Of a stretch of 52,698 bases of DNA, positions 6,756 through 42,106 are shown in pieces. The notes under the pieces were generated by a model, which worked only from the letters and a program-made list of their open reading frames with translations, searched no databases and was not told the origin of the DNA. How positions within the stretch are numbered: position 1 is the stretch's first letter; the number at the start of each line of letters is the position of its first letter. The position numbers were made by a program, and so were the translations under genes. This DNA is from Dehalococcoidia bacterium (GTDB lineage: Bacteria; Chloroflexota; Dehalococcoidia; SHYM01): NCBI GenBank assembly GCA_009692805.1, contig SHYM01000002.1, positions 1 through 52,698 on the forward strand. The letters are read 5' to 3'.

Positions 6756-8390
6756 TCATAGCGCAGCCAGTGGCAAGGGATGCTGGCCGCCCTCCCGGAT
6801 CACATCCTTGGCGGCGCCGATGAAGTCGCGGAAGAGGGGATTGGGGCGGTTGGGCCGGCTGGTGAACTCGGGGTGGGCCTGGGTGCCCAGCATCCAGGGG
6901 TGGTCGGCCAGCTCCACGATCTCCACCAGCAGCCCATCGGGCGAGAGGCCGGTGGCGCGCAGCCCCTCCGCCTCCAGGGTCTCGCGGTAGCTGTTGTTGA
7001 ACTCAAAGCGATGGCGGTGGCGCTCGGCGGCGACGGGGGCTCCATAGGCGCGCGCGGCCCGGCTGCCGGACAGCAGGTTGCACGGGTAGAGGCCCAGGCG
7101 CATGGTGGCGCCCTTCTGCTTGACGTGGCGTTGCTCAGGGAGTATGTCGATGACCGGGTTGGGCGTGTCGGCGTCGAACTCGGTGGAGTGGGCGGGCGCG
7201 TGTAGAACGTGGCGGGCGAACTCGATCGTCATCACCTGCATCCCCAGGCAGAGGCCCAGGTAGGGCACCCGCCGTTCACGGGCGTAGCGGGCCGCCAGGA
7301 TCATCCCCTCCACCCCGCGCGGGCCGAAGCCGCCGGGGACCACGATGCCCTGGGCGGAGCGGATCAACCGATCGGGGTCTCCGCGCTCCAGCTCCTCCGC
7401 CGGGACCCAGTTGATCTTAACCTCCCGCTGGTGGTGGACCCCGGCGTGGCAGAGGGCCTCCTTGACGGATAAATAGGCGTCTCGTAGCTCCACGTACTTG
7501 CCCACCAGGGCGATCTCCACCGGGGGCTTGGGCGCCCGGATTTGTTCGACGAAGCAGCGCCAGTCATGCAGGTCGTGGGTGGCGGCGGGGAGTCGCAGCA
7601 TCTCCTCCAGCAGCTCCCCCAGCCCCATCTCTTCCAGGAGCAACGGGACTTCGTAGATGCTCTGGACGGTGGGCAGGGGCACCACGGCGCGGACGTCCAC
7701 GTCGCAGAAGAGGGCGATCTTGTCTTTGATCTCGTCGCTCAGGGGCTGCTCGCTGCGGCAGACGATGATATCGGGCTGGATGCCGATGCCGCGGAGTTCC
7801 TTCACGCTGTGCTGGGTAGGCTTCGTTTTGAGTTCCCCGGTGGAGGCGATGTAGGGCACGTAGGTGAGGTGGACGTAGAGGACGTTGTCCCGCCCCACGT
7901 CCTTCCGCAGCTGCCGGATCGCCTCTAGGAAGGGGAGCCCCTCGATGTCGCCCACGGTGCCCCCGACCTCCACGATGACGACTTCCGCGCCGCTCTCCTT
8001 GGCGGCACTGGTGATGCGGACCTTGATCTCGTTGGTTACGTGGGGCACCACCTGCACGGTGCCTCCTAGGAAGTCGCCCCGGCGCTCCTTGAGCATGGTC
8101 TCGGTGTAGATCTGGCCTGAGGTGACGTTGGAGGAGCGGGTGAGGTTGACGTCCATGAAACGCTCGTAGTGGCCCAGGTCCAGATCGGTCTCGGCCCCGT
8201 CCTGGGTGACGAACACCTCGCCGTGCTGGTAGGGGGACATGGTGCCAGGGTCCACGTTGAGATAGGGGTCCAGCTTCTGGACGAAGACGGAGATGCCGCG
8301 GCTCCTGAGCAGGCGCCCCAGGGAGGATACGGTGATCCCCTTGCCGATGGAGCTGATCACGCCGCCGGTCACAAAGATGTACTTTGCCAT
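6756..8390 (-). CDS. pyrG: CTP synthase
   Basis: Begins [18 protein letters not shown]. Contains the glutamine amidotransferase region ([15 protein letters not shown]) and is 544 aa. Confidence 0.95.
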
Positions 8391-8566
8391 ACCTCTATTC
8401 AGGGCATGCCAACCTTGGGCCTGGATGCCTAAAGGGTTCGTAGTGGAGGCTCGCCCACCGCCAGAGCCTGTGGGGCTCCGGGCAGCTCGCGAAAGGTAGG
8501 GGCCGGGTCAAAGTCACGTAGGCCTGGCCTCTTGGGGAGCGCGGGGTTTCATACCGGCTTCAGGAC

Positions 8567-8597
8567 ATTATACACGCTGGCCGGCCCCAAGTGTCAA
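8567..8597 (-). promoter_or_regulatory. Candidate promoter for pyrG (TTGACA, 19 nt, TATAAT), implying a leader of about 170 nt
   Basis: The minus strand reads TTGACActtggggccggccagcgtgTATAAT. Both hexamers are perfect, but the 19-nt spacer is longer than optimal. Confidence 0.35.
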
Positions 8598-8817
8598 GGC
8601 GAGTGTAGTCGTTCTCGCTACAGGTGCGGCCTTGGCGATCGGGCTCGGCGCGCTCACGAGGGCCAGATGGAGGGGAACCAGGCGCCGCCGGTCTGGATGG
8701 ATCGCGAGAAGGCCAGGTCGGGGTTATCGCGGCTCGCTGGCCCCATGGCGCTGGGCCGGGGCGGGGCGGCTGGTTTTCGGGGGCGCCGCTTGGGGAGGGG
8801 ACCTCCAAGGGACCGTG

Positions 8818-9357
8818 CTAGCTGGCGCGGCCGGGGGCCCGCTGGAGCGCCAGGGCGATCTTTTCCTGGGGCGACAGGGCTGAAAGGTCGGGGGCCCGGC
8901 GCAAGGGGGCGCCTGCCGGGAGGCGTCCGGCCTGGTTGGTGGCCTCCAGTTTGGCCTTGATGCGCTCCACCATGGCGAGGGCTCTCCCGTAGGAGCGCTC
9001 CACTTCCTCGGGGGTGGAGCCCTGCACAAGCTCCTCGGGGACCTCGGGCGCGGCGGCCAGCAGCAGCCGCCGGACGGCGCCCGCGGAGGCCAGCAAGCCC
9101 TCGCGGAGGGCGGCCGCCTCGCCGACGGCGGCTGCGCCTGCCTGCTGAGCAGCCTCGACCGTCCGCTGGCCCTGGGCCAGCTCCGTCTCCCGCTGCCTGA
9201 GCTGTTGGCGCAGCCCCTCGATCTCGCCCTGCTGGGCCTCGATGATCCGCAGGCGGGGGTCGGCGCCTTCGCCATCGGCTACAGCACTGGCGCCGACTGC
9301 CGGCGCGTCCTGATTTAAGGAAAGAGGGCTGTCTATGACTGTTACGGGTGCTTCCAT
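8818..9357 (-). CDS. Uncharacterised Ala/Gln/Glu-rich coiled-coil protein (179 aa) behind a predicted LexA-controlled promoter
   Basis: I chose the ATG at 9357, which has GGAGGG 8 nt upstream. The sequence begins MEAPVTVIDSPLS. The central part looks heptad-like (EIEGLRQQLRQRETELAQGQRTVEAAQQ). I see no TM segment and recognise no family. Confidence 0.6.
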   Translation of the reverse strand: MEAPVTVIDSPLSLNQDAPAVGASAVADGEGADPRLRIIEAQQGEIEGLRQQLRQRETELAQGQRTVEAAQQAGAAAVGEAAALREGLLASAGAVRRLLLAAAPEVPEELVQGSTPEEVERSYGRALAMVERIKAKLEATNQAGRLPAGAPLRRAPDLSALSPQEKIALALQRAPGRAS

Positions 9358-9385
9358 CGCCGTTTTCCCTCCATAAAGTGGGAAC

Positions 9386-9414
9386 AGGATAGAACATATG
9401 TTCCGATCTGTCAA
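9386..9414 (-). promoter_or_regulatory. Promoter TTGACA, 17 nt, TATCCT for the 8818..9357 gene
   Basis: The minus strand reads cTTGACAgatcggaacatatgttcTATCCT. The spacing is exactly 17 nt. The predicted transcription start is about 22 nt upstream of the ATG. Confidence 0.6.
9392..9403. promoter_or_regulatory. Cheo-box-type LexA operator GAACATATGTTC (perfect GAAC-N4-GTTC palindrome)
   Basis: A perfect 12-bp palindrome that matches the core of the CGAACN4GTTCG SOS-box consensus. It lies wholly inside the promoter spacer. Confidence 0.6.
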
Positions 9415-9620
9415 GGGCCGTCCGGCAGCCCCTCCGCCGTGGCGGCGCAACCTCGTGGTGGCGCGGCGAGCCGGGTTCTGTTAGACTAAACGAAGTGGAA
9501 TGAATCGGCAGACTGCCATCTTGACGGGTGCGGCACGGGATAACCAGCCACCTCCTGTTCCCCTCACACGATCCGCGCTGACCGACGAGTCCCAACTTTC
9601 TTCTCAAGGAGTCAGCTCGG

Positions 9621-10877
9621 ATGCCCCTTAGCGATTCGACCCCAGTAGACTCGTTCTCGTCCTTCGACCTTCACCCCGAAACCCGTAACGCGCTGGATGC
9701 CATGGGGATTTCGGTCCCCACCCTCATTCAGGCGCAGACTATTCCGGCCCTGCTCCAGGGCTGCGACGTCGTCGGCCAGGCGTGGACTGGGTCGGGCAAG
9801 ACCCTGGCCTTCGGGGTCCCCCTCGTGGAGCGCTGTGACGCCGCTGGGCGCGATGTCCAGGCGCTTGTCCTCGCACCGACCCGCGAGCTAGCCATCCAGG
9901 TCGGTGGGGTACTCGGCGCCCTGGCCACCGCGCGACACCTCAAACTGCTCCTGCTGTACGGTGGCCGATCCCTGGCCCCCGAACGTCAAGCCCTAGTGCG
10001 AGGCGCCCATATCGTGGTGGGCACACCGGGGCGAATCCTAGACCATCTACGACAAGGTAGCCTCGTTCTAAAGAGGCTGCGCTTCTTTGTCCTGGACGAG
10101 GGCGATGCGATGCTCGACCAGGGGTTCGCGCCTGATGTCGAGCGGATTCTGGCGTATACGCCGCCGCAACGGCAGACCGCCCTCTTCTCCGCGACCGTTC
10201 CCCCTTGGGTGATGGGCATGGCGGCCCGCCATCTTCGTAACCCCGTCGTCTTTCGAGCGCACGCCGAGATCGAGGCGGCACCCGATATCCACCACATTGT
10301 CTATCAGATGGAGATCAGCGCTAAGCTCGACGCCCTGCGGATACTGCTCGACAATCGGGACCGCGGAGCAACCCTCGTGTTTGGCCGGACCAAGCATGGC
10401 GTGGCCAAATTGGCCTTGCGCCTCGCCAGCCTGGGATACCCCGTGGCGGCGCTCCAAGGGAATCTGAGCCAGAACGCTCGCGAGCGCGTGATGGCTGACT
10501 TTCGGTCTGGACGCCTGCCCATACTGCTGGCTACCAACGTCGCTGCGCGGGGACTCGACATCGAAGAGGTGGGGCAGGTCATCAACTACGAGTTGCCCGA
10601 GTCGGCGCAGCTCTTCACCCATCGAGTCGGGCGCACGGGACGGATGGGCAGGAAGGGCAGCGCCATCACCTTTGTGACGCCCGAGGATAGCCGGAAATGG
10701 GGTCAGATCGAGCGGGAGTTGGGCCGCAGTCTGCCTCGGACACCATGGATCAACCGCGGGCTGCCACAGCCCATACGGGCGGCAGGCCCCTCGGTCCCGC
10801 CCCGCGCCCCTGGCCGCTCGCCCGCCCGCGCCCCCGGCCATGCGCCCGCCCGTCAAAGGAGCGGCGCCACCCGCTGA
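9621..10877 (+). CDS. DEAD-box ATP-dependent RNA helicase with variant motif II DEGD and an Arg/Pro-rich tail
   Basis: Contains the Q motif (F..PTLIQ), motif I AWTGSGKT, Ia PTRELA, TPGR, motif II VLDEGD, SAT, ARGLDI and HRVGRTGRMG. Confidence 0.9.
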   Translation: MPLSDSTPVDSFSSFDLHPETRNALDAMGISVPTLIQAQTIPALLQGCDVVGQAWTGSGKTLAFGVPLVERCDAAGRDVQALVLAPTRELAIQVGGVLGALATARHLKLLLLYGGRSLAPERQALVRGAHIVVGTPGRILDHLRQGSLVLKRLRFFVLDEGDAMLDQGFAPDVERILAYTPPQRQTALFSATVPPWVMGMAARHLRNPVVFRAHAEIEAAPDIHHIVYQMEISAKLDALRILLDNRDRGATLVFGRTKHGVAKLALRLASLGYPVAALQGNLSQNARERVMADFRSGRLPILLATNVAARGLDIEEVGQVINYELPESAQLFTHRVGRTGRMGRKGSAITFVTPEDSRKWGQIERELGRSLPRTPWINRGLPQPIRAAGPSVPPRAPGRSPARAPGHAPARQRSGATR

Positions 10878-11685: not shown

Positions 11686-11761
11686 TGGTGGAGCTGAGGG
11701 GACTCGAACCCCTGACCCCTTGCATGCCATGCAAGTGCTCTCCCAGTTGAGCTACAGCCCC
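11686..11761 (-). tRNA. tRNA-Ala (anticodon GGC), CCA encoded
   Basis: I folded the cloverleaf by hand: GGGGCTG TA GCTC AACTGGGA GAGC A CTTGC ATGGCAT GCAAG GGGTC AGGGG TTCGAGT CCCCT CAGCTCC A CCA. The G3:U70 identity pair is present. Confidence 0.9.
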
Positions 11762-39506: not shown

Positions 39507-39712
39507 CCTATGGAGAGTTAACCAGAAAGCTGCGCAGGCTCGGCTTCCAAATGTACCGGCGTGCTAAGGGTAGTCACGAAATTTGGTGGAACCCAAGCAC
39601 CAGAGTGCTCACAACCATCTCAGCCCACAAGGACCGAGAGATCCCGAAGGGCACCTTGGCGGATATTCTCAAGCAGCTTGGCCTGACGATTGATGAACTG
39701 CGGCGTAACTAA
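39503..39712 (+). CDS. hicA: HicA-family mRNA interferase toxin
   Basis: 69 aa. Reads ELTRKLRRLGFQMYRRAKGSHEIWWNP...IPKGTLADILKQLGL (the YcfA/HicA pattern with GSH). Confidence 0.85.
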   Translation: MTYGELTRKLRRLGFQMYRRAKGSHEIWWNPSTRVLTTISAHKDREIPKGTLADILKQLGLTIDELRRN

Positions 39713-39715
39713 GCC

Positions 39716-42106
39716 ATGACCACCACTATCGCGGCGCCGGGCCGCTTCCAGCTTGTCTCTGACTTCAAGCCCATGGGCGACCAGCCTCAGGCCATCGCCA
39801 AGCTGGCCGATGGCGTGAACCTGGGCCTGAAGTGGCAGACCCTGCTGGGAGTCACCGGCTCCGGCAAGACCTTCACCATGGCCAACGTCATTGAGACCGC
39901 GCAGCGGCCCAGCCTGGTGCTGGCGCCCAACCGCACCCTGGCCGCCCAGCTCTACTCCGAGTTCAAGGAGTTCTTCCCCCACAACGCCGTCGAGTACTTC
40001 GTCTCCTACTACGACTACTACCAGCCGGAGGCCTACATACCCCGGACCGACACCTACATCGAGAAGGACGCGGACATCAACGAGGAGATCGACAAGCTGC
40101 GCCACCGCGCCACCAGCGCCCTCTTCGAGCACCGCGACGTGATCATCGTTGCCTCCATCTCCTGCATCTACGGCCTGGGCGAGCCCAGCGAGTATCGCTC
40201 CTTCGTCATCGAGCTGGAGAAGGGGCAGCGCTACAACCGCGACAAGCTCGTGCGCCGCCTGATCGACCAGCAGTACGAGCGCAATGACGCCGACTTCACC
40301 CGCGGCCGCTTCCGCATCCGGGGCGACACCCTGGAGCTACGGCCTTCCTACGAGGACATCGCCCTGCGGCTCGAGTTCTTTGGCGACCAGTTGGAGCGCA
40401 TTGTGGAGCTGGACCCCCTCACGGGCGAGCTATTGAACGAGCGGGACCGCGTCGCCATCTATCCCGCCAAGCATTGGGTCACCAGCGCCGACAAACTTCA
40501 GCTCGCCATCGCCGATATCGAGCGGGAGCTGGCGGAGCGCGTGGCTGACATGAGCGCCAGGGGCAAGGTGCTGGAGGCGGCGCGGCTGGAGCAGCGCACT
40601 CACTACGACCTGGAGTCGATGCGCGAGTTCGGCTACTGCCCCGGCATCGAGAACTACTCCCGCCACCTCCAGCGCCGTCCCGTGGGCAGTCCACCCTGGA
40701 CACTGCTGGACTACTTCCCCGACGACTTCCTGCTGTTCATCGACGAGTCCCACATCTCCATCCCCCAGGCGCGGGGCATGTACCTGGGCGATCTCTCCCG
40801 CAAGGAAACCCTGGTGGAATACGGGTTTCGGCTGCCCTGCGCCCTGGACAACCGGCCCCTCTCCTTCCCGGAGCTGGAGGGGCGGCTGCACCAGGTCGTC
40901 TGCGTCTCGGCTACCCCTGGACCCTACGAGAAGGCCCGCTCCGAGCAGGTGGTGGAGCAGGTGATCCGGCCCACGGGCCTCCTGGACCCGACCATCGAGG
41001 TCAAGCCCACCGAGGGGCAGATAGATGACCTGCTGCATCAGGTCCGCGCACGGGCCCAGCGCGGCGAGCGCTGCCTGGTGACCACCCTCACCAAGCGCAT
41101 GGCCGAGGAGCTGGCCGACTACTTGCTCGAGATGGGCGTCAAGGTCCACTATTTGCACTCGGAGATCGACACCATCCAGCGGGTGGAGATCCTGCGCGAC
41201 CTGCGCCTGGGTATCTACGACGTGGTGGTGGGCATCAACCTGCTGCGGGAGGGGCTCGACCTGCCCGAAGTAAGCCTGGTGACCATCCTGGACGCCGACA
41301 AGGAGGGCTACCTGCGCTCGGGCGGCTCCCTTATCCAGACCATCGGCCGGGCATCGCGCCACGTGGAGGGCCACGTCATCATGTACGCCGACCGGGTGAC
41401 CGACTCCATGCGCCAGGCCATCGATGAGACCTACCGGCGGCGCGCCATCCAGCAACGCTACAACGAGGAGCACGGCATCAGCCCCCAGGGCATCAGCAAA
41501 GCTATCAAGGACCTCACAGACCAGGTCAGGATGGTGGCCGAGCAGGCGACGGAGTACCGCACGGACACCCGGCGCGCTGCCGTGGGCCAGATGGACAAGA
41601 GCGCCATCCTGAGGCTCGTCAAGGACTTGGAGTCACAGATGAAGCGGGCGGCGAAGGAGCTCCAGTTCGAGAAGGCGGCCCTCATCCGCGACCAGGTCAT
41701 CGACCTGCGCCGCGAGCTGGTGAGCATCGACGATGTTGCCATCGCCGCCCAGGGCAAGCCCTACTCAGGTTCTGCTCATCCTTCGACAGGCTCAGGACGA
41801 GCGGATGATATGACCGTTGGTGGTGAGCCTGTCGAACCACAAGCCCCTGGAATGCGTAGCGCCTACGCCTTCTACGAGCAGGCGCCGGAGACGCCAGCGC
41901 TCGAAGGGGAGCTGCCGCCGGGCTTGCTGGCCCTGGACGGCAAGAAACGCCGACGCCATTCTGCTAAAGCTGATGCGGCTCCCCCTCTGCCCCTGGGCGA
42001 GGGTAAGAGTGAGGGCGCATCGCCCCCGGACCGTCTCCTGGAGCACGAGACCAAGCGCTCTCTTTACAAGTCGGCCCGCAAGCTGGGGGGCCGCCGCAAG
42101 CGCTGA
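39716..42106 (+). CDS. uvrB: Excinuclease ABC subunit B with a C-terminal extension of about 126 aa built from repeat-element sequence
   Basis: Canonical UvrB runs from [17 protein letters not shown] through GVTGSGKT and the helicase motifs to the UVR domain ([20 protein letters not shown]). Homologues normally end 10-20 aa after that point. Confidence 0.95.
41782..41836. repeat. Palindromic element TTCGACAGGCTCA-N29-TGAGCCTGTCGAA inside the uvrB reading frame
   Basis: Perfect 13-bp inverted arms. Related half-sites occur at 33262-33292, 42352-42375, 46606-46650 and 46845-46871. Confidence 0.8.

What the first reader, a model, noticed from the sequence alone, without database searches (positions are those of the whole stretch)
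8818..9414. Perfect Cheo-type LexA box inside the spacer of a near-consensus promoter driving an uncharacterised coiled-coil protein
On the minus strand the sequence reads cTTGACA-gatcgGAACATATGTTC-TATCCT, then 22 nt, GGAGGG, 8 nt, ATG. The 12-bp perfect palindrome GAACATATGTTC (9392-9403) matches the GAAC-N4-GTTC core of the SOS box used by LexA in Gram-positive-type lineages. It fills the 17-nt spacer between the -35 and -10 hexamers, which is the classic position for repression by occlusion. The gene it controls (179 aa, Ala/Gln/Glu-rich, heptad-like, no TM segment) belongs to no family I recognise. It is not one of the usual SOS genes (recA, lexA, uvrA/B, dinB and so on). uvrB in this same window has no such box. 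This may therefore be an undescribed DNA-damage-inducible function, for example a division or replication checkpoint factor, or a phage-derived relic kept under LexA control. The divergent DEAD-box helicase (9621) lies about 220 bp from the box and could share the regulation.
Basis: partly seen in the sequence, partly recalled or inferred. Interest (0 to 1): 0.7.

Follow-up and report, generated by a model that had tools for sequence, protein, structure and literature searches.

The report
SOS-controlled orphan phage scaffolding gene
The DNA-damage (LexA-type) switch in this promoter is real and conserved, but the "unknown coiled-coil protein" it controls is a stray phage head-scaffolding gene, left over from a phage-like element common in Chloroflexota, not a new bacterial checkpoint factor.

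Summary
On the minus strand, TTGACA (9414-9409), a 17-nt spacer ending in GAACATATGTTC (9403-9392), TATCCT (9391-9386), GGAGGG and ATG 9357 drive a 179-aa ORF.

The operator sits at the same promoter position in relatives with 85% and 62% protein identity. The half-sites stay invariant while N4 changes (ATAT, GCAT, GTAC). It recurs in 6 (perfect) to 14 (GAAC-N4-RTTC) of 35 homologous loci that have their own promoter (P about 1e-12 to 1e-25).

The protein is not a new host SOS function. In 80 loci from Chloroflexota genomes and metagenome contigs its family lies between an SPP1-type portal gene (65 loci) and an HK97-type major capsid gene (55 loci). That is the head-scaffolding position.

The same LexA-box promoter also drives the terminase/portal operon of these elements, and recA, rarA and a lexA-adjacent gene in metagenomes.

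The window copy is an orphan: the contig has no portal, capsid, terminase or lexA. It is nevertheless intact and under purifying selection (dN/dS about 0.35).

Shared control of the DEAD-box helicase is not supported. LexA binding itself remains inferred.

The parts
9421..9431 (-). Conserved promoter-upstream element (GGCTGCCGGA, core CTGCC 9428-9424), about 8 nt upstream of the -35
   Evidence: Cassette conservation with L002 and L086 starts here (alignment A3). TGCC(A/G)/TGAC(A/C) lies at the same offset in element promoters but not in recA/rarA/membrane-protein promoters.
9409..9414 (-). -35 hexamer TTGACA
   Evidence: Invariant in WIN, L002 and L086.
9392..9403 (.). LexA-type (Cheo-type) operator GAACATATGTTC, occupying the last 12 nt of the 17-nt spacer and abutting the -10
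   Evidence: Conserved position and half-sites with variable N4 in orthologues. Enrichment P about 1e-12.
9386..9391 (-). -10 hexamer TATCCT
   Evidence: The same 18-mer GAACATATGTTCTATCCT precedes TerL in L051.
9367..9372 (-). Shine-Dalgarno GGAGGG, 9 nt before the ATG
   Evidence: conserved in L002 and L086.
8818..9357 (-). 179-aa orphan head-scaffolding-protein homologue. Disordered 1-33, helix 34-102, helix 116-144, Pro/Gly linker, C-terminal helix 163-173 with invariant E-K-I.
   Evidence: Family synteny portal-X-major capsid; AF2 model; invariant residues; dN/dS 0.34-0.38.
8654..8797 (-). Small downstream ORF of the cassette (47-48 aa in relatives: PKRRPRKP...NPDLAFSRPIRTGGAWFPSVWP). In the window its ATG is CTC, and an internal ATG would give 30 aa.

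Best explanation
The locus is a roughly 0.83-kb cassette. It holds a strong sigma-70 promoter with a LexA-type operator in its spacer, a phage head-scaffolding gene, and a small downstream ORF. It derives from a phage-like head/packaging/tail element that is widespread in Chloroflexota, especially Dehalococcoidia.

Inferred mechanism: a LexA dimer on GAACATATGTTC, roughly -24 to -13 and abutting the -10, blocks RNA polymerase. DNA damage would lead to RecA-stimulated LexA self-cleavage, derepression and synthesis of the protein. This is the standard LexA model applied here, not something tested.

Inferred protein action: it dimerises through its long helix and uses its conserved C-terminal helix (LSPQEKIALAL) to bind the inner face of an HK97-fold capsid protein.

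In related elements the same promoter module drives scaffold plus capsid plus tail genes, or terminase plus portal genes. So LexA appears to be the direct switch of the structural operons. In this contig only the scaffolding gene remains. It is intact and selectively maintained, so it most likely still acts in trans on a capsid protein encoded elsewhere in the genome or by an incoming or resident relative. I do not read it as a mere dead relic.

Shown: anatomy, conservation, family synteny, selection. Inferred: LexA binding, SOS induction, capsid binding, trans action.
For: Anatomy and promoter.

Operator conservation:
- L002 (85% protein identity) and L086 (62% identity, different neighbours) keep TTGACA-N5-GAAC-N4-GTTC-TAT(C/T)CT while N4 and the first 5 spacer bases change.
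- Of 35 homologous loci with their own upstream region, 6 have a perfect box and 14 have GAAC-N4-RTTC at -75..-25. Expected values are 0.03 and 0.10. None of 44 portal-coupled loci has one.
- Of 16 perfect sites in 1.16 Mb, 6 precede the scaffold gene, and the 3 others that share the same flanks, (A)GAAC...GTTC(TAT), lie in the structural-gene region upstream of it in L051 and L070 (the L051 one read directly, 10 nt before the TerL ATG).
- N4 is always R-N-R-Y.

Scaffold identity:
- The family lies immediately downstream of an SPP1-type portal in 65 of 80 loci and immediately upstream of an HK97-type major head protein in 55 of 80 (phrog_212 E=1e-70; Pfam Phage_capsid). TerL and tail genes flank these.
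- 112 IMG/VR contigs carry it.
- Phages with a homologous capsid protein (35-40% identity) have an annotated scaffolding gene in the same slot, with a similar C-terminal SP-x-(E/D/Q)-K-I-x-x-(A/G)-L motif.
- Weak PHROG scaffolding hits come from 11 member-family pairs.
- The AF2 model has a long helix plus a short C-terminal helix, pLDDT 80. The BFVD hit list includes the Gordonia phage Volt scaffolding protein.

Orphan status: no portal, capsid, TerL, tail or LexA homologue in the contig. Neighbours are pyrG, transaldolase, rho and a DEAD helicase.

Selection: dN/dS 0.34-0.38 (C-terminal half 0.26). dS equals that of pyrG. All family-invariant residues are kept.

SOS nature of the module: the exact module precedes recA (L199), rarA/mgsA (L170), a radical-SAM/HhH repair gene (L182) and a gene divergent from lexA (L238). 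At least 16 stretches carry it before the TerL/portal genes of this element family.

Published precedent: GAAC-N4-GTTC is the LexA motif of Firmicutes and Actinobacteria (PMC3323433). From my own knowledge, it is also the motif of Dehalococcoides ethenogenes LexA (Fernandez de Henestrosa et al., J Bacteriol 2002, 184:6073).
Against: - No LexA, recA or other SOS gene of this genome could be inspected. The only recA seen next to a family member (L006) has no box.
- The lexA found with the module is from Desulfobacterales, not Chloroflexota.
- I could not retrieve the published Chloroflexi LexA work, so that link rests on memory.
- Sequence similarity to named scaffolding families is not significant (hhalign E=0.1-0.16; PHROG E about 1e-2 to 1e-4). 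There are no PDB matches. The identification rests mainly on gene order.
- Many box-bearing loci are related to each other, so the enrichment P values overstate independence.
- In the GAAC-N4-ATTC variants the right half overlaps the -10 (TATTCT) and may partly reflect promoter sequence.
- A dN/dS of 0.35 is only moderate constraint.
- The small downstream ORF has lost its start codon in the window, which hints at some decay.
Confidence: 0.68

Rival explanations
1. Decaying relic. The cassette is a leftover of a lost prophage. The promoter and operator persist by inertia, the protein has no current role, and any SOS induction is inconsequential.
For: No partner structural genes in 52.7 kb. The small downstream ORF has lost its ATG in the window. 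A truncated serine-recombinase fragment lies next to tRNA-Ala 1.7 kb away, which shows past mobile-element traffic. Scaffolding genes in intact clusters show a similar dN/dS of about 0.35, so this value is not by itself proof of a new function.
Against: The ORF, SD, -35, -10 and both operator half-sites are intact in three lineages separated by dS up to 0.7 and sitting in at least two different chromosomal contexts. dN/dS is well below 1, and lowest in the capsid-binding C-terminal half. GC3 is adapted to the host.
Confidence: 0.2
2. The palindrome is not a LexA site. It could be bound by an element-encoded or other host repressor, or it could simply be a favoured spacer sequence of this promoter family. 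Expression would then not be SOS-dependent.
For: LexA binding was not tested. Element promoters carry an extra conserved TGAC(A/C)/TGCC motif upstream of the -35, which suggests additional element-specific control. About half of the own-promoter loci lack a recognisable box. recA in L006 has no box.
Against: The site matches the canonical GAAC-RNRY-GTTC LexA consensus exactly. N4 varies while the half-sites do not. The identical module precedes recA, rarA and a repair radical-SAM gene and lies next to lexA in other bacteria. No repressor gene travels with the 0.83-kb cassette.
Confidence: 0.12
3. One reading: a new host-encoded SOS effector (a division or replication checkpoint factor) unrelated to phages.
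For: Chromosomal, housekeeping neighbourhood. Coiled-coil proteins can be division inhibitors. Maintained by selection.
Against: Family members are embedded in portal-scaffold-capsid gene order in most loci and in 112 viral contigs. The C-terminal motif is shared with scaffolding proteins of phages that have a homologous capsid protein. Every genome-collection hit is Chloroflexota, 65 of the 80 analysed loci carry an adjacent portal gene, and the cassette sits in different chromosomal contexts in different genomes.
Confidence: 0.04

Closest known systems
Cheo-type (Gram-positive type) LexA operators: B. subtilis CGAACRNRYGTTYC, Actinobacteria TCGAAC-N4-GTTCGA, Dehalococcoides ethenogenes GAAC-N4-GTTC
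   Same: Same palindromic core and the same R-N-R-Y centre. Overlaps the core promoter, the classic occlusion geometry. The same module is found at recA, rarA and next to lexA in metagenomes. The motif is documented for Firmicutes and Actinobacteria in PMC3323433.
   Different: Flanks are A/G...T rather than C...G. The target is a phage morphogenesis gene, not a repair gene. Binding by the cognate LexA is untested, and the genome's own lexA and recA were not available.
SaPI operon I of Staphylococcus aureus pathogenicity islands (terS, cpmA, cpmB, pti genes), repressed by LexA
   Same: A LexA-controlled promoter directly drives capsid-morphogenesis and packaging genes of a chromosomal phage-related element (PMC5052747, citing Ubeda et al. 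2007). CpmB is a small helical scaffolding-like dimer that competes with the helper's scaffolding protein through a shared C-terminal motif (PMC5644958). The window protein likewise keeps the family-wide C-terminal motif.
   Different: No integrase, replication, terS or Stl-like genes accompany the window gene. There is no sequence similarity to CpmB. Interference with a helper phage is purely hypothetical here.
Internal head scaffolding proteins of tailed phages with HK97-fold capsids (e.g. Pseudomonas phage PaMx11 gp14, Streptomyces phage SF1 gp05, Paenibacillus phage Unity gp09, 80alpha SP)
   Same: Same gene slot immediately upstream of a homologous major capsid gene (35-40% identity). Similar size, helical coiled-coil build and a short C-terminal amphipathic helix with an SP-x-(E/D/Q)-K-I-x-x-(A/G)-L-like motif.
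   Different: No statistically significant sequence or fold match. The window copy has no adjacent capsid or portal gene.
Phages and phage-like particles that use host LexA directly (GIL01; RcGTA, whose production depends on LexA and whose genes are spread over several loci)
   Same: Host LexA boxes sit in element promoters instead of, or in addition to, a CI-type repressor (GIL01: PMC4551915). GTA genes are multi-locus and vertically inherited (PMC5026251). Related Dehalococcoidia genomes show partial clusters under strong purifying selection.
   Different: No particle production, DNA packaging or multi-locus organisation has been shown for this lineage. LexA control of RcGTA is indirect (my own knowledge), whereas here the box lies in the structural-gene promoter.

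Membership tests
LexA (SOS) operator, Gram-positive/Cheo type | Palindrome GAAC-N4-GTTC | tested here: met
   GAACATATGTTC at 9392-9403.
LexA (SOS) operator, Gram-positive/Cheo type | Central tetranucleotide R-N-R-Y (consensus CGAACRNRYGTTYC; my own knowledge of Winterling et al. 1998) | tested here: met
   ATAT in the window; GCAT, GTAC, ATGT, AGAT in orthologous promoters.
LexA (SOS) operator, Gram-positive/Cheo type | Overlaps or abuts core promoter elements so that the bound repressor occludes RNA polymerase | tested here: met
   Fills the last 12 nt of the 17-nt spacer and abuts TATCCT. It is the only promoter-like site in the region.
LexA (SOS) operator, Gram-positive/Cheo type | Conserved upstream of orthologues | tested here: met
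   WIN, L002 and L086 are identical in position. 6 to 14 of 35 own-promoter loci carry it, against 0.03-0.10 expected.
LexA (SOS) operator, Gram-positive/Cheo type | Same motif at lexA/recA/uvrA of the same genome | not testable with these tools
   The window is the whole contig and encodes none of these. uvrB has no box.
LexA (SOS) operator, Gram-positive/Cheo type | Bound by LexA; transcript induced by DNA damage | not testable with these tools
   Needs EMSA/ChIP and mitomycin C or UV transcriptomics.
Phage internal head scaffolding protein | Gene located between the portal (or protease) and major capsid genes | tested here: met
   True for the family: portal immediately upstream in 65 of 80 loci, HK97-type capsid gene immediately downstream in 55 of 80. 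The window copy itself has lost both neighbours.
Phage internal head scaffolding protein | Small, highly helical, coiled-coil-prone protein with a flexible N-terminus and a short C-terminal capsid-binding helix | tested here: met
   AF2 pLDDT 80: disordered 1-33, helices 34-102 and 116-144, C-terminal helix 163-173. The invariant residues cluster in the C-terminal third.
Phage internal head scaffolding protein | Detectable homology to characterised or annotated scaffolding families | tested here: inconclusive
   PHROG scaffolding families are hit only weakly (E 1e-2 to 1e-4). hhalign against scaffolds of phages with a homologous capsid protein aligns the C-terminal motif, but E=0.16. Foldseek BFVD E about 0.03. 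PDB gives nothing.
Phage internal head scaffolding protein | Binds capsid protein, nucleates procapsids, absent from mature heads | not testable with these tools
   Needs biochemistry or cryo-EM.
PICI/SaPI-type satellite packaging module (LexA-controlled operon I with CpmB-like scaffold) | Embedded in an island with integrase, Stl-like repressor, primase/replication and terS genes | tested here: not met
   Flanks are pyrG, transaldolase, rho, a DEAD helicase and DHODH. The only recombinase is a truncated fragment beyond the helicase.
Gene transfer agent-like domesticated element | Structural genes vertically inherited, under purifying selection, split over loci and controlled by host regulators | tested here: inconclusive
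   In related Dehalococcoidia, capsid-less TerL-portal-scaffold clusters lie beside the same downstream flanking ORF, and TerL and portal in six of these genomes have dN/dS about 0.1. Scaffold-capsid-tail clusters without TerL/portal also exist. Nothing comparable could be examined for the window's genome.

The most novel reading that the evidence does not exclude
The orphan scaffolding gene may be a working, host-retained part of a LexA-switched phage-derived system in Chloroflexota. There are two possibilities.

(a) It is one locus of a multi-locus, GTA-like particle machine, whose terminase/portal, scaffold and capsid/tail modules each carry their own LexA-box promoter.

(b) It is a CpmB-like decoy scaffold made during the SOS response. 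It would hijack or sabotage capsid assembly of resident or incoming phages of this very conserved capsid family.

The evidence does not exclude either reading. The gene is maintained by selection in three lineages, and it keeps the family-invariant capsid-binding C-terminus. The family's capsid protein is unusually conserved (at least 74% identity among the best 120 of 5,735 hits). Partial clusters in other genomes are under strong purifying selection.
Probability: 0.25. Interest if true: 0.8.

Novelty: new variant of a known kind. Interest (0 to 1): 0.5.

Why it matters
This turns an apparent new SOS gene into something explicable: a phage scaffolding gene with its native LexA-operated promoter. 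It also shows that in GC-rich Chloroflexota a whole family of phage-like elements wires host LexA directly to structural and packaging operons. That pattern is otherwise known mainly from SaPI operon I and a few LexA-dependent phages.

It gives a sequence-level handle (TTGACA-N5-GAAC-RNRY-GTTC-TAT) on the SOS regulon of an uncultured phylum-level group.

If the orphan copy is functional, it would be a simple, testable case of a bacterium keeping a single capsid-assembly protein under DNA-damage control. The role could be particle production or interference with phage assembly.

Tried and rejected
- Pfam on the 179-aa protein: only a sub-threshold coiled-coil hit, HIP1_clath_bdg. Rejected as compositional.
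- PDB sequence search and PDB fold search: only generic coiled coils and helical hairpins.
- hhalign against the PaMx11 scaffolding protein and against six scaffolds of phages with a homologous capsid protein: not significant.
- Rfam on 8300-9700: nothing.
- Looking for LexA, portal, capsid, TerL or tail homologues in the window: none. LexA in 84 related loci: none.
- Verifying the Chloroflexota LexA motif directly failed:
  - The only lexA recovered with the module (L238) is from Desulfobacterales.
  - recA next to a family member (L006) has no box.
  - The D. ethenogenes LexA paper could not be retrieved.
- IMG/VR relatives (80 loci): none has a box before the scaffold gene, because these are the portal-coupled, low-GC type.
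- The second GAAC-N4-GTTC in L002 (9172) lies inside an inserted low-GC segment and lacks the extended consensus. I treated it as chance.
- DEAD-helicase co-regulation: rejected on synteny.
Full report
**1. The observation**

Reading the minus strand confirms c-TTGACA (9414-9409), gatcg-GAACATATGTTC (9403-9392), TATCCT (9391-9386), 13 nt, GGAGGG (9372-9367), 9 nt, ATG (9357), and an ORF ending at TAG 8818 (179 aa).

The promoter scan returns this as the only sigma-70-like site between 8300 and 9700 (10 of 12 matches, 17-nt spacer; 0.2 expected by chance). It finds no intrinsic terminator before pyrG.

On its own the core motif is unremarkable. There is one GAAC-N4-GTTC in 52.7 kb against 0.29 expected, and 26% of shuffles give at least one. 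No other near-match precedes a repair gene, and uvrB (39716-42106) has none.

**2. Conservation of the operator**

The closest homologue (P0001, 85% identity; loci L001-L004, groundwater metagenomes) lies in the same DEAD-helicase to pyrG interval. A 359-aa hydrolase gene has been inserted upstream of it. The promoter nevertheless stays attached to the gene: TTGACA-tgatg-GAACGCATGTTC-TATCCT.

A 62%-identical homologue with different neighbours (L086) has TTGACA-gggcg-GAACGTACGTTC-TATTCT. In the three-way alignment the -35, both half-sites and the SD are invariant. The first five spacer bases and N4 vary. Similarity begins about 18 nt upstream of the -35 and ends at the stop of a small downstream ORF. 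This defines a cassette of roughly 0.83 kb.

Across 79 analysable homologous loci:
- 44 have the gene within 120 nt of an upstream portal gene, and none of these has a box.
- 35 have their own upstream region. Of these, 6 carry a perfect box and 14 carry GAAC-N4-RTTC at -75..-25, against 0.03 and 0.10 expected from the density in the same 1.16 Mb (Poisson P about 1e-12 and 1e-25).

Relatedness among loci inflates these values, but at least seven distinct lineages are involved. N4 is always R-N-R-Y, as in the Gram-positive LexA consensus.

**3. What the gene is**

Pfam gives nothing meaningful. PHROGs gives weak hits that include head scaffolding families. The protein search found 47 unannotated relatives. 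A scan of one genome per species found 75 loci, all in Chloroflexota and mostly Dehalococcoidia. A scan of IMG/VR found 112 viral contigs.

Clustering all ORFs within 8 kb of the gene in 80 loci gave a clear neighbourhood:
- an SPP1-type portal immediately upstream on the same strand in 65 loci;
- a 296-aa protein immediately downstream in 55 loci;
- a small HTH protein and a large terminase further upstream;
- tail-like proteins downstream.

The downstream protein is an HK97-type major head protein (phrog_212 E=1e-70; Pfam Phage_capsid). The others are confirmed as portal and terminase.

Cultured phages whose capsid protein is 35-40% identical to this one have, in the same slot, a gene annotated as head scaffolding protein in PaMx11, SF1 and Unity. 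Their C-termini (e.g. ...MTPAQKIAAGLN...SSVDKIAAGLAKG) resemble the family's invariant ...LSPQEKIALAL. hhalign aligns exactly this segment but without significance (E=0.16).

The AF2 model (pLDDT 80) shows a disordered N-terminus, helices 34-102 and 116-144, a Pro/Gly linker carrying the invariant R-x-P-x-G-x-P-x-R, and a C-terminal helix 163-173 carrying the invariant E-K-I. Foldseek gives weak viral hits, including a Gordonia phage scaffolding protein, and nothing in the PDB.

I conclude that the family is the head-scaffolding protein of a Chloroflexota phage-like element. The main basis is gene order, supported by architecture and motif.

**4. The window copy is an orphan, but not obviously dead**

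No portal, capsid, terminase, tail or LexA homologue exists anywhere in the window, and the window is a complete 52,698-bp contig. Neighbours are moaA, rdgB/Ham1, rho, transaldolase, pyrG on one side and the DEAD helicase, a truncated serine-recombinase fragment, tRNA-Ala and DHODH on the other.

Pairwise dN/dS among the WIN, L002 and L086 copies is 0.34-0.38, and 0.26 in the C-terminal half. dS between WIN and L002 equals that of pyrG (0.20), which fits long vertical co-residence. GC3 is host-like. All family-invariant residues are retained.

**5. The promoter module belongs to the element family and to SOS genes**

Within the element family, a box with the same flanks lies in the structural-gene region upstream of the scaffold gene in L070 and L051. 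In L051 the 18-mer GAACATATGTTCTATCCT, identical to the window's, sits 10 nt before the TerL start codon, next to a second, divergent box-promoter.

Downstream genes include:
- recA (L199);
- rarA/mgsA (L170);
- a radical-SAM/HhH repair protein (L182);
- a gene divergent from lexA (L238);
- at least 16 stretches leading into TerL, the HTH gene and the portal gene of this same element family, often via a 114-aa membrane protein;
- 27 stretches preceding an uncharacterised membrane protein.

So the architecture is a bona fide SOS-type promoter, and the element family uses it repeatedly for its structural operons.

That GAAC-N4-GTTC is the LexA motif of Firmicutes and Actinobacteria is stated in PMC3323433. 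That Dehalococcoides ethenogenes LexA binds the same motif, at lexA and uvrA but not recA, is my recollection of Fernandez de Henestrosa et al. 2002, which I could not retrieve. A recA without a box in L006 is consistent with that recollection.

**6. Mechanism**

Shown: promoter and operator geometry, conservation, family identity, orphan status and purifying selection.

Inferred: LexA occludes the promoter, and DNA damage derepresses it. The protein dimerises through its long helix and binds an HK97-fold capsid protein through its C-terminal helix.

Because the family's capsid protein is extraordinarily conserved (5,735 hits with E below 1e-30, and the best 120 all at least 74% identical), an orphan that keeps the consensus C-terminus should still recognise any capsid protein of this family. 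That protein could be encoded elsewhere in the genome or brought in by a related phage.

**7. Wider context in relatives**

Capsid-less clusters (TerL, HTH, portal, an inserted gene, then a promoter and the scaffold gene) lie beside the same downstream flanking ORF in seven Dehalococcoidia species-level genomes, of which L049 keeps only the scaffold gene; in the six with TerL and portal those genes have dN/dS about 0.1 over dS up to 0.6.

Conversely, L033, L053 and L055 have no portal or TerL gene in the ~9.7 kb held upstream of scaffold-capsid-tail; in L033, the only one read there, a one-mismatch box promoter (GAACGCGCATTC) directly follows host genes.

This pattern is compatible with domesticated, possibly multi-locus, phage-derived machinery. 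I could not test it for the window's genome.

**8. The helicase**

The 180 nt upstream of the DEAD helicase are nearly identical in L002. There the box lies 1.4 kb away, beyond the inserted hydrolase gene. Shared regulation is therefore not conserved and is unlikely.

**9. Comparison with known systems and verdict**

It works like a Cheo-type LexA operator. Sequence, geometry and conservation are met. Binding and regulon membership in this genome are untested.

It encodes a member of a scaffolding family by synteny and architecture. Sequence homology to named families is inconclusive.

The nearest functional precedent is SaPI operon I. There LexA directly controls capsid-morphogenesis genes, including the scaffold-like CpmB, which competes with the helper's scaffold via a shared C-terminal motif (PMC5052747, PMC5644958). 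However, the window has none of the island's defining genes, so it is not a PICI. GIL01 (PMC4551915) and GTAs (PMC5026251) are looser analogues.

This is a new variant of a known kind, of moderate interest.

Noticed in passing
window 8654-8797 (minus); L002 8893-9036; L086 918-1064: A small Pro/Arg-rich ORF (47-48 aa, ...NPDLAFSRPIRTGGAWFPSVWP) follows the scaffold gene only in the window's clade and is part of the conserved cassette. In the window its ATG has become CTC, and an internal ATG would leave 30 aa. No homologue was found in any other locus.
   Followed up: partly
window 11033-~11680 (+), abutting tRNA-Ala 11686-11761 (-): C-terminal fragment of a large serine recombinase (Zn_ribbon_recom plus coiled coil, no catalytic domain) next to a tRNA gene. 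It looks like a relic of an integrated element. No recombinase gene is called between the helicase and DHODH genes of the close relative (L001-L003 gene tables); the DNA there was not read.
   Followed up: partly
window 9460-9620; L002 6820-6985: The roughly 180 nt upstream of the DEAD-box helicase are almost identical between the two genomes despite the adjacent insertion. This suggests a conserved leader or regulatory region. There is no Rfam match.
   Followed up: partly
L005, L014, L021, L023, L024, L040, L049 (Dehalococcoidia MAG chromosomes): Clusters of terminase, HTH, portal and scaffold without any capsid gene lie beside the same downstream flanking ORF in seven species-level genomes (L049 keeps only the scaffold gene). 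In the six with TerL and portal, those genes have dN/dS about 0.1. This looks like a domesticated or split phage-derived module. L033, L053 and L055 have scaffold-capsid-tail without terminase or portal.
   Followed up: partly
proteins P0048-P0167: The family's HK97-type major capsid protein is unusually conserved: 5,735 database proteins with E below 1e-30, and the best 120 are all at least 74% identical over (nearly) the full ~296 aa. Every hit that carries an organism name is from Chloroflexota/Dehalococcoidia MAGs.
   Followed up: no
L169, L172, L175, L188, L190, L193, L204, L206, L207, L211-L213, L219, L220, L226, L230, L236, L241, L251, L252, L256, L260, L267, L270, L274, L278, L282: 27 of 120 metagenome stretches carrying CCTTGACA-N5-GAAC-N4-GTTCTAT precede an uncharacterised 225-265-aa membrane protein (motif AFEIFNFSTTxFAL, no Pfam hit). 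It is a candidate undescribed SOS-regulated membrane protein of unknown taxon.
   Followed up: partly
window 9421-9431; element promoters in L007, L010, L011, L017, L059, L177, L216, L243 and others: Element promoters carry an extra TGAC(A/C)/TGCC(A/G) motif about 8 nt upstream of the -35. The recA, rarA and membrane-protein promoters with the same LexA module do not. It may be a site for an element-specific activator.
   Followed up: partly
L051 1925-2070: Two divergent LexA-box promoters sit back to back. The rightward one ends 10 nt before the TerL ATG, which implies a leaderless or near-leaderless terminase mRNA.
   Followed up: no
L243, L197, L210, L217, L231, L248, L250, L254, L268, L276: In a GC-rich clade the LexA-box promoter first drives a 114-aa predicted membrane protein (holin-like?); TerL begins about 1.2 kb downstream in the six loci long enough to reach it (L210, L217, L231, L243, L248, L254). 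No Pfam hit.
   Followed up: no
L002 9036-10600: A lower-GC insertion of about 1.5 kb lies between the cassette and pyrG in the close relative. It encodes an 80-89-aa Cys-rich protein and a 361-aa protein of unknown function, and contains a second (probably chance) GAAC-N4-GTTC at 9172.
   Followed up: no
window ~39520-39712 (+): The ORF ending just before uvrB reads like a HicA-type toxin (...GSHEIWWNP...IPKGTLADILKQLGL...). This was judged by eye only.
   Followed up: no
L238 700-870: A Desulfobacterales lexA gene has a perfect AGAACATATGTTCT about 120 nt upstream, inside a divergent promoter. The Gram-positive-type box therefore also occurs next to lexA in this deltaproteobacterial lineage.
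   Followed up: partly
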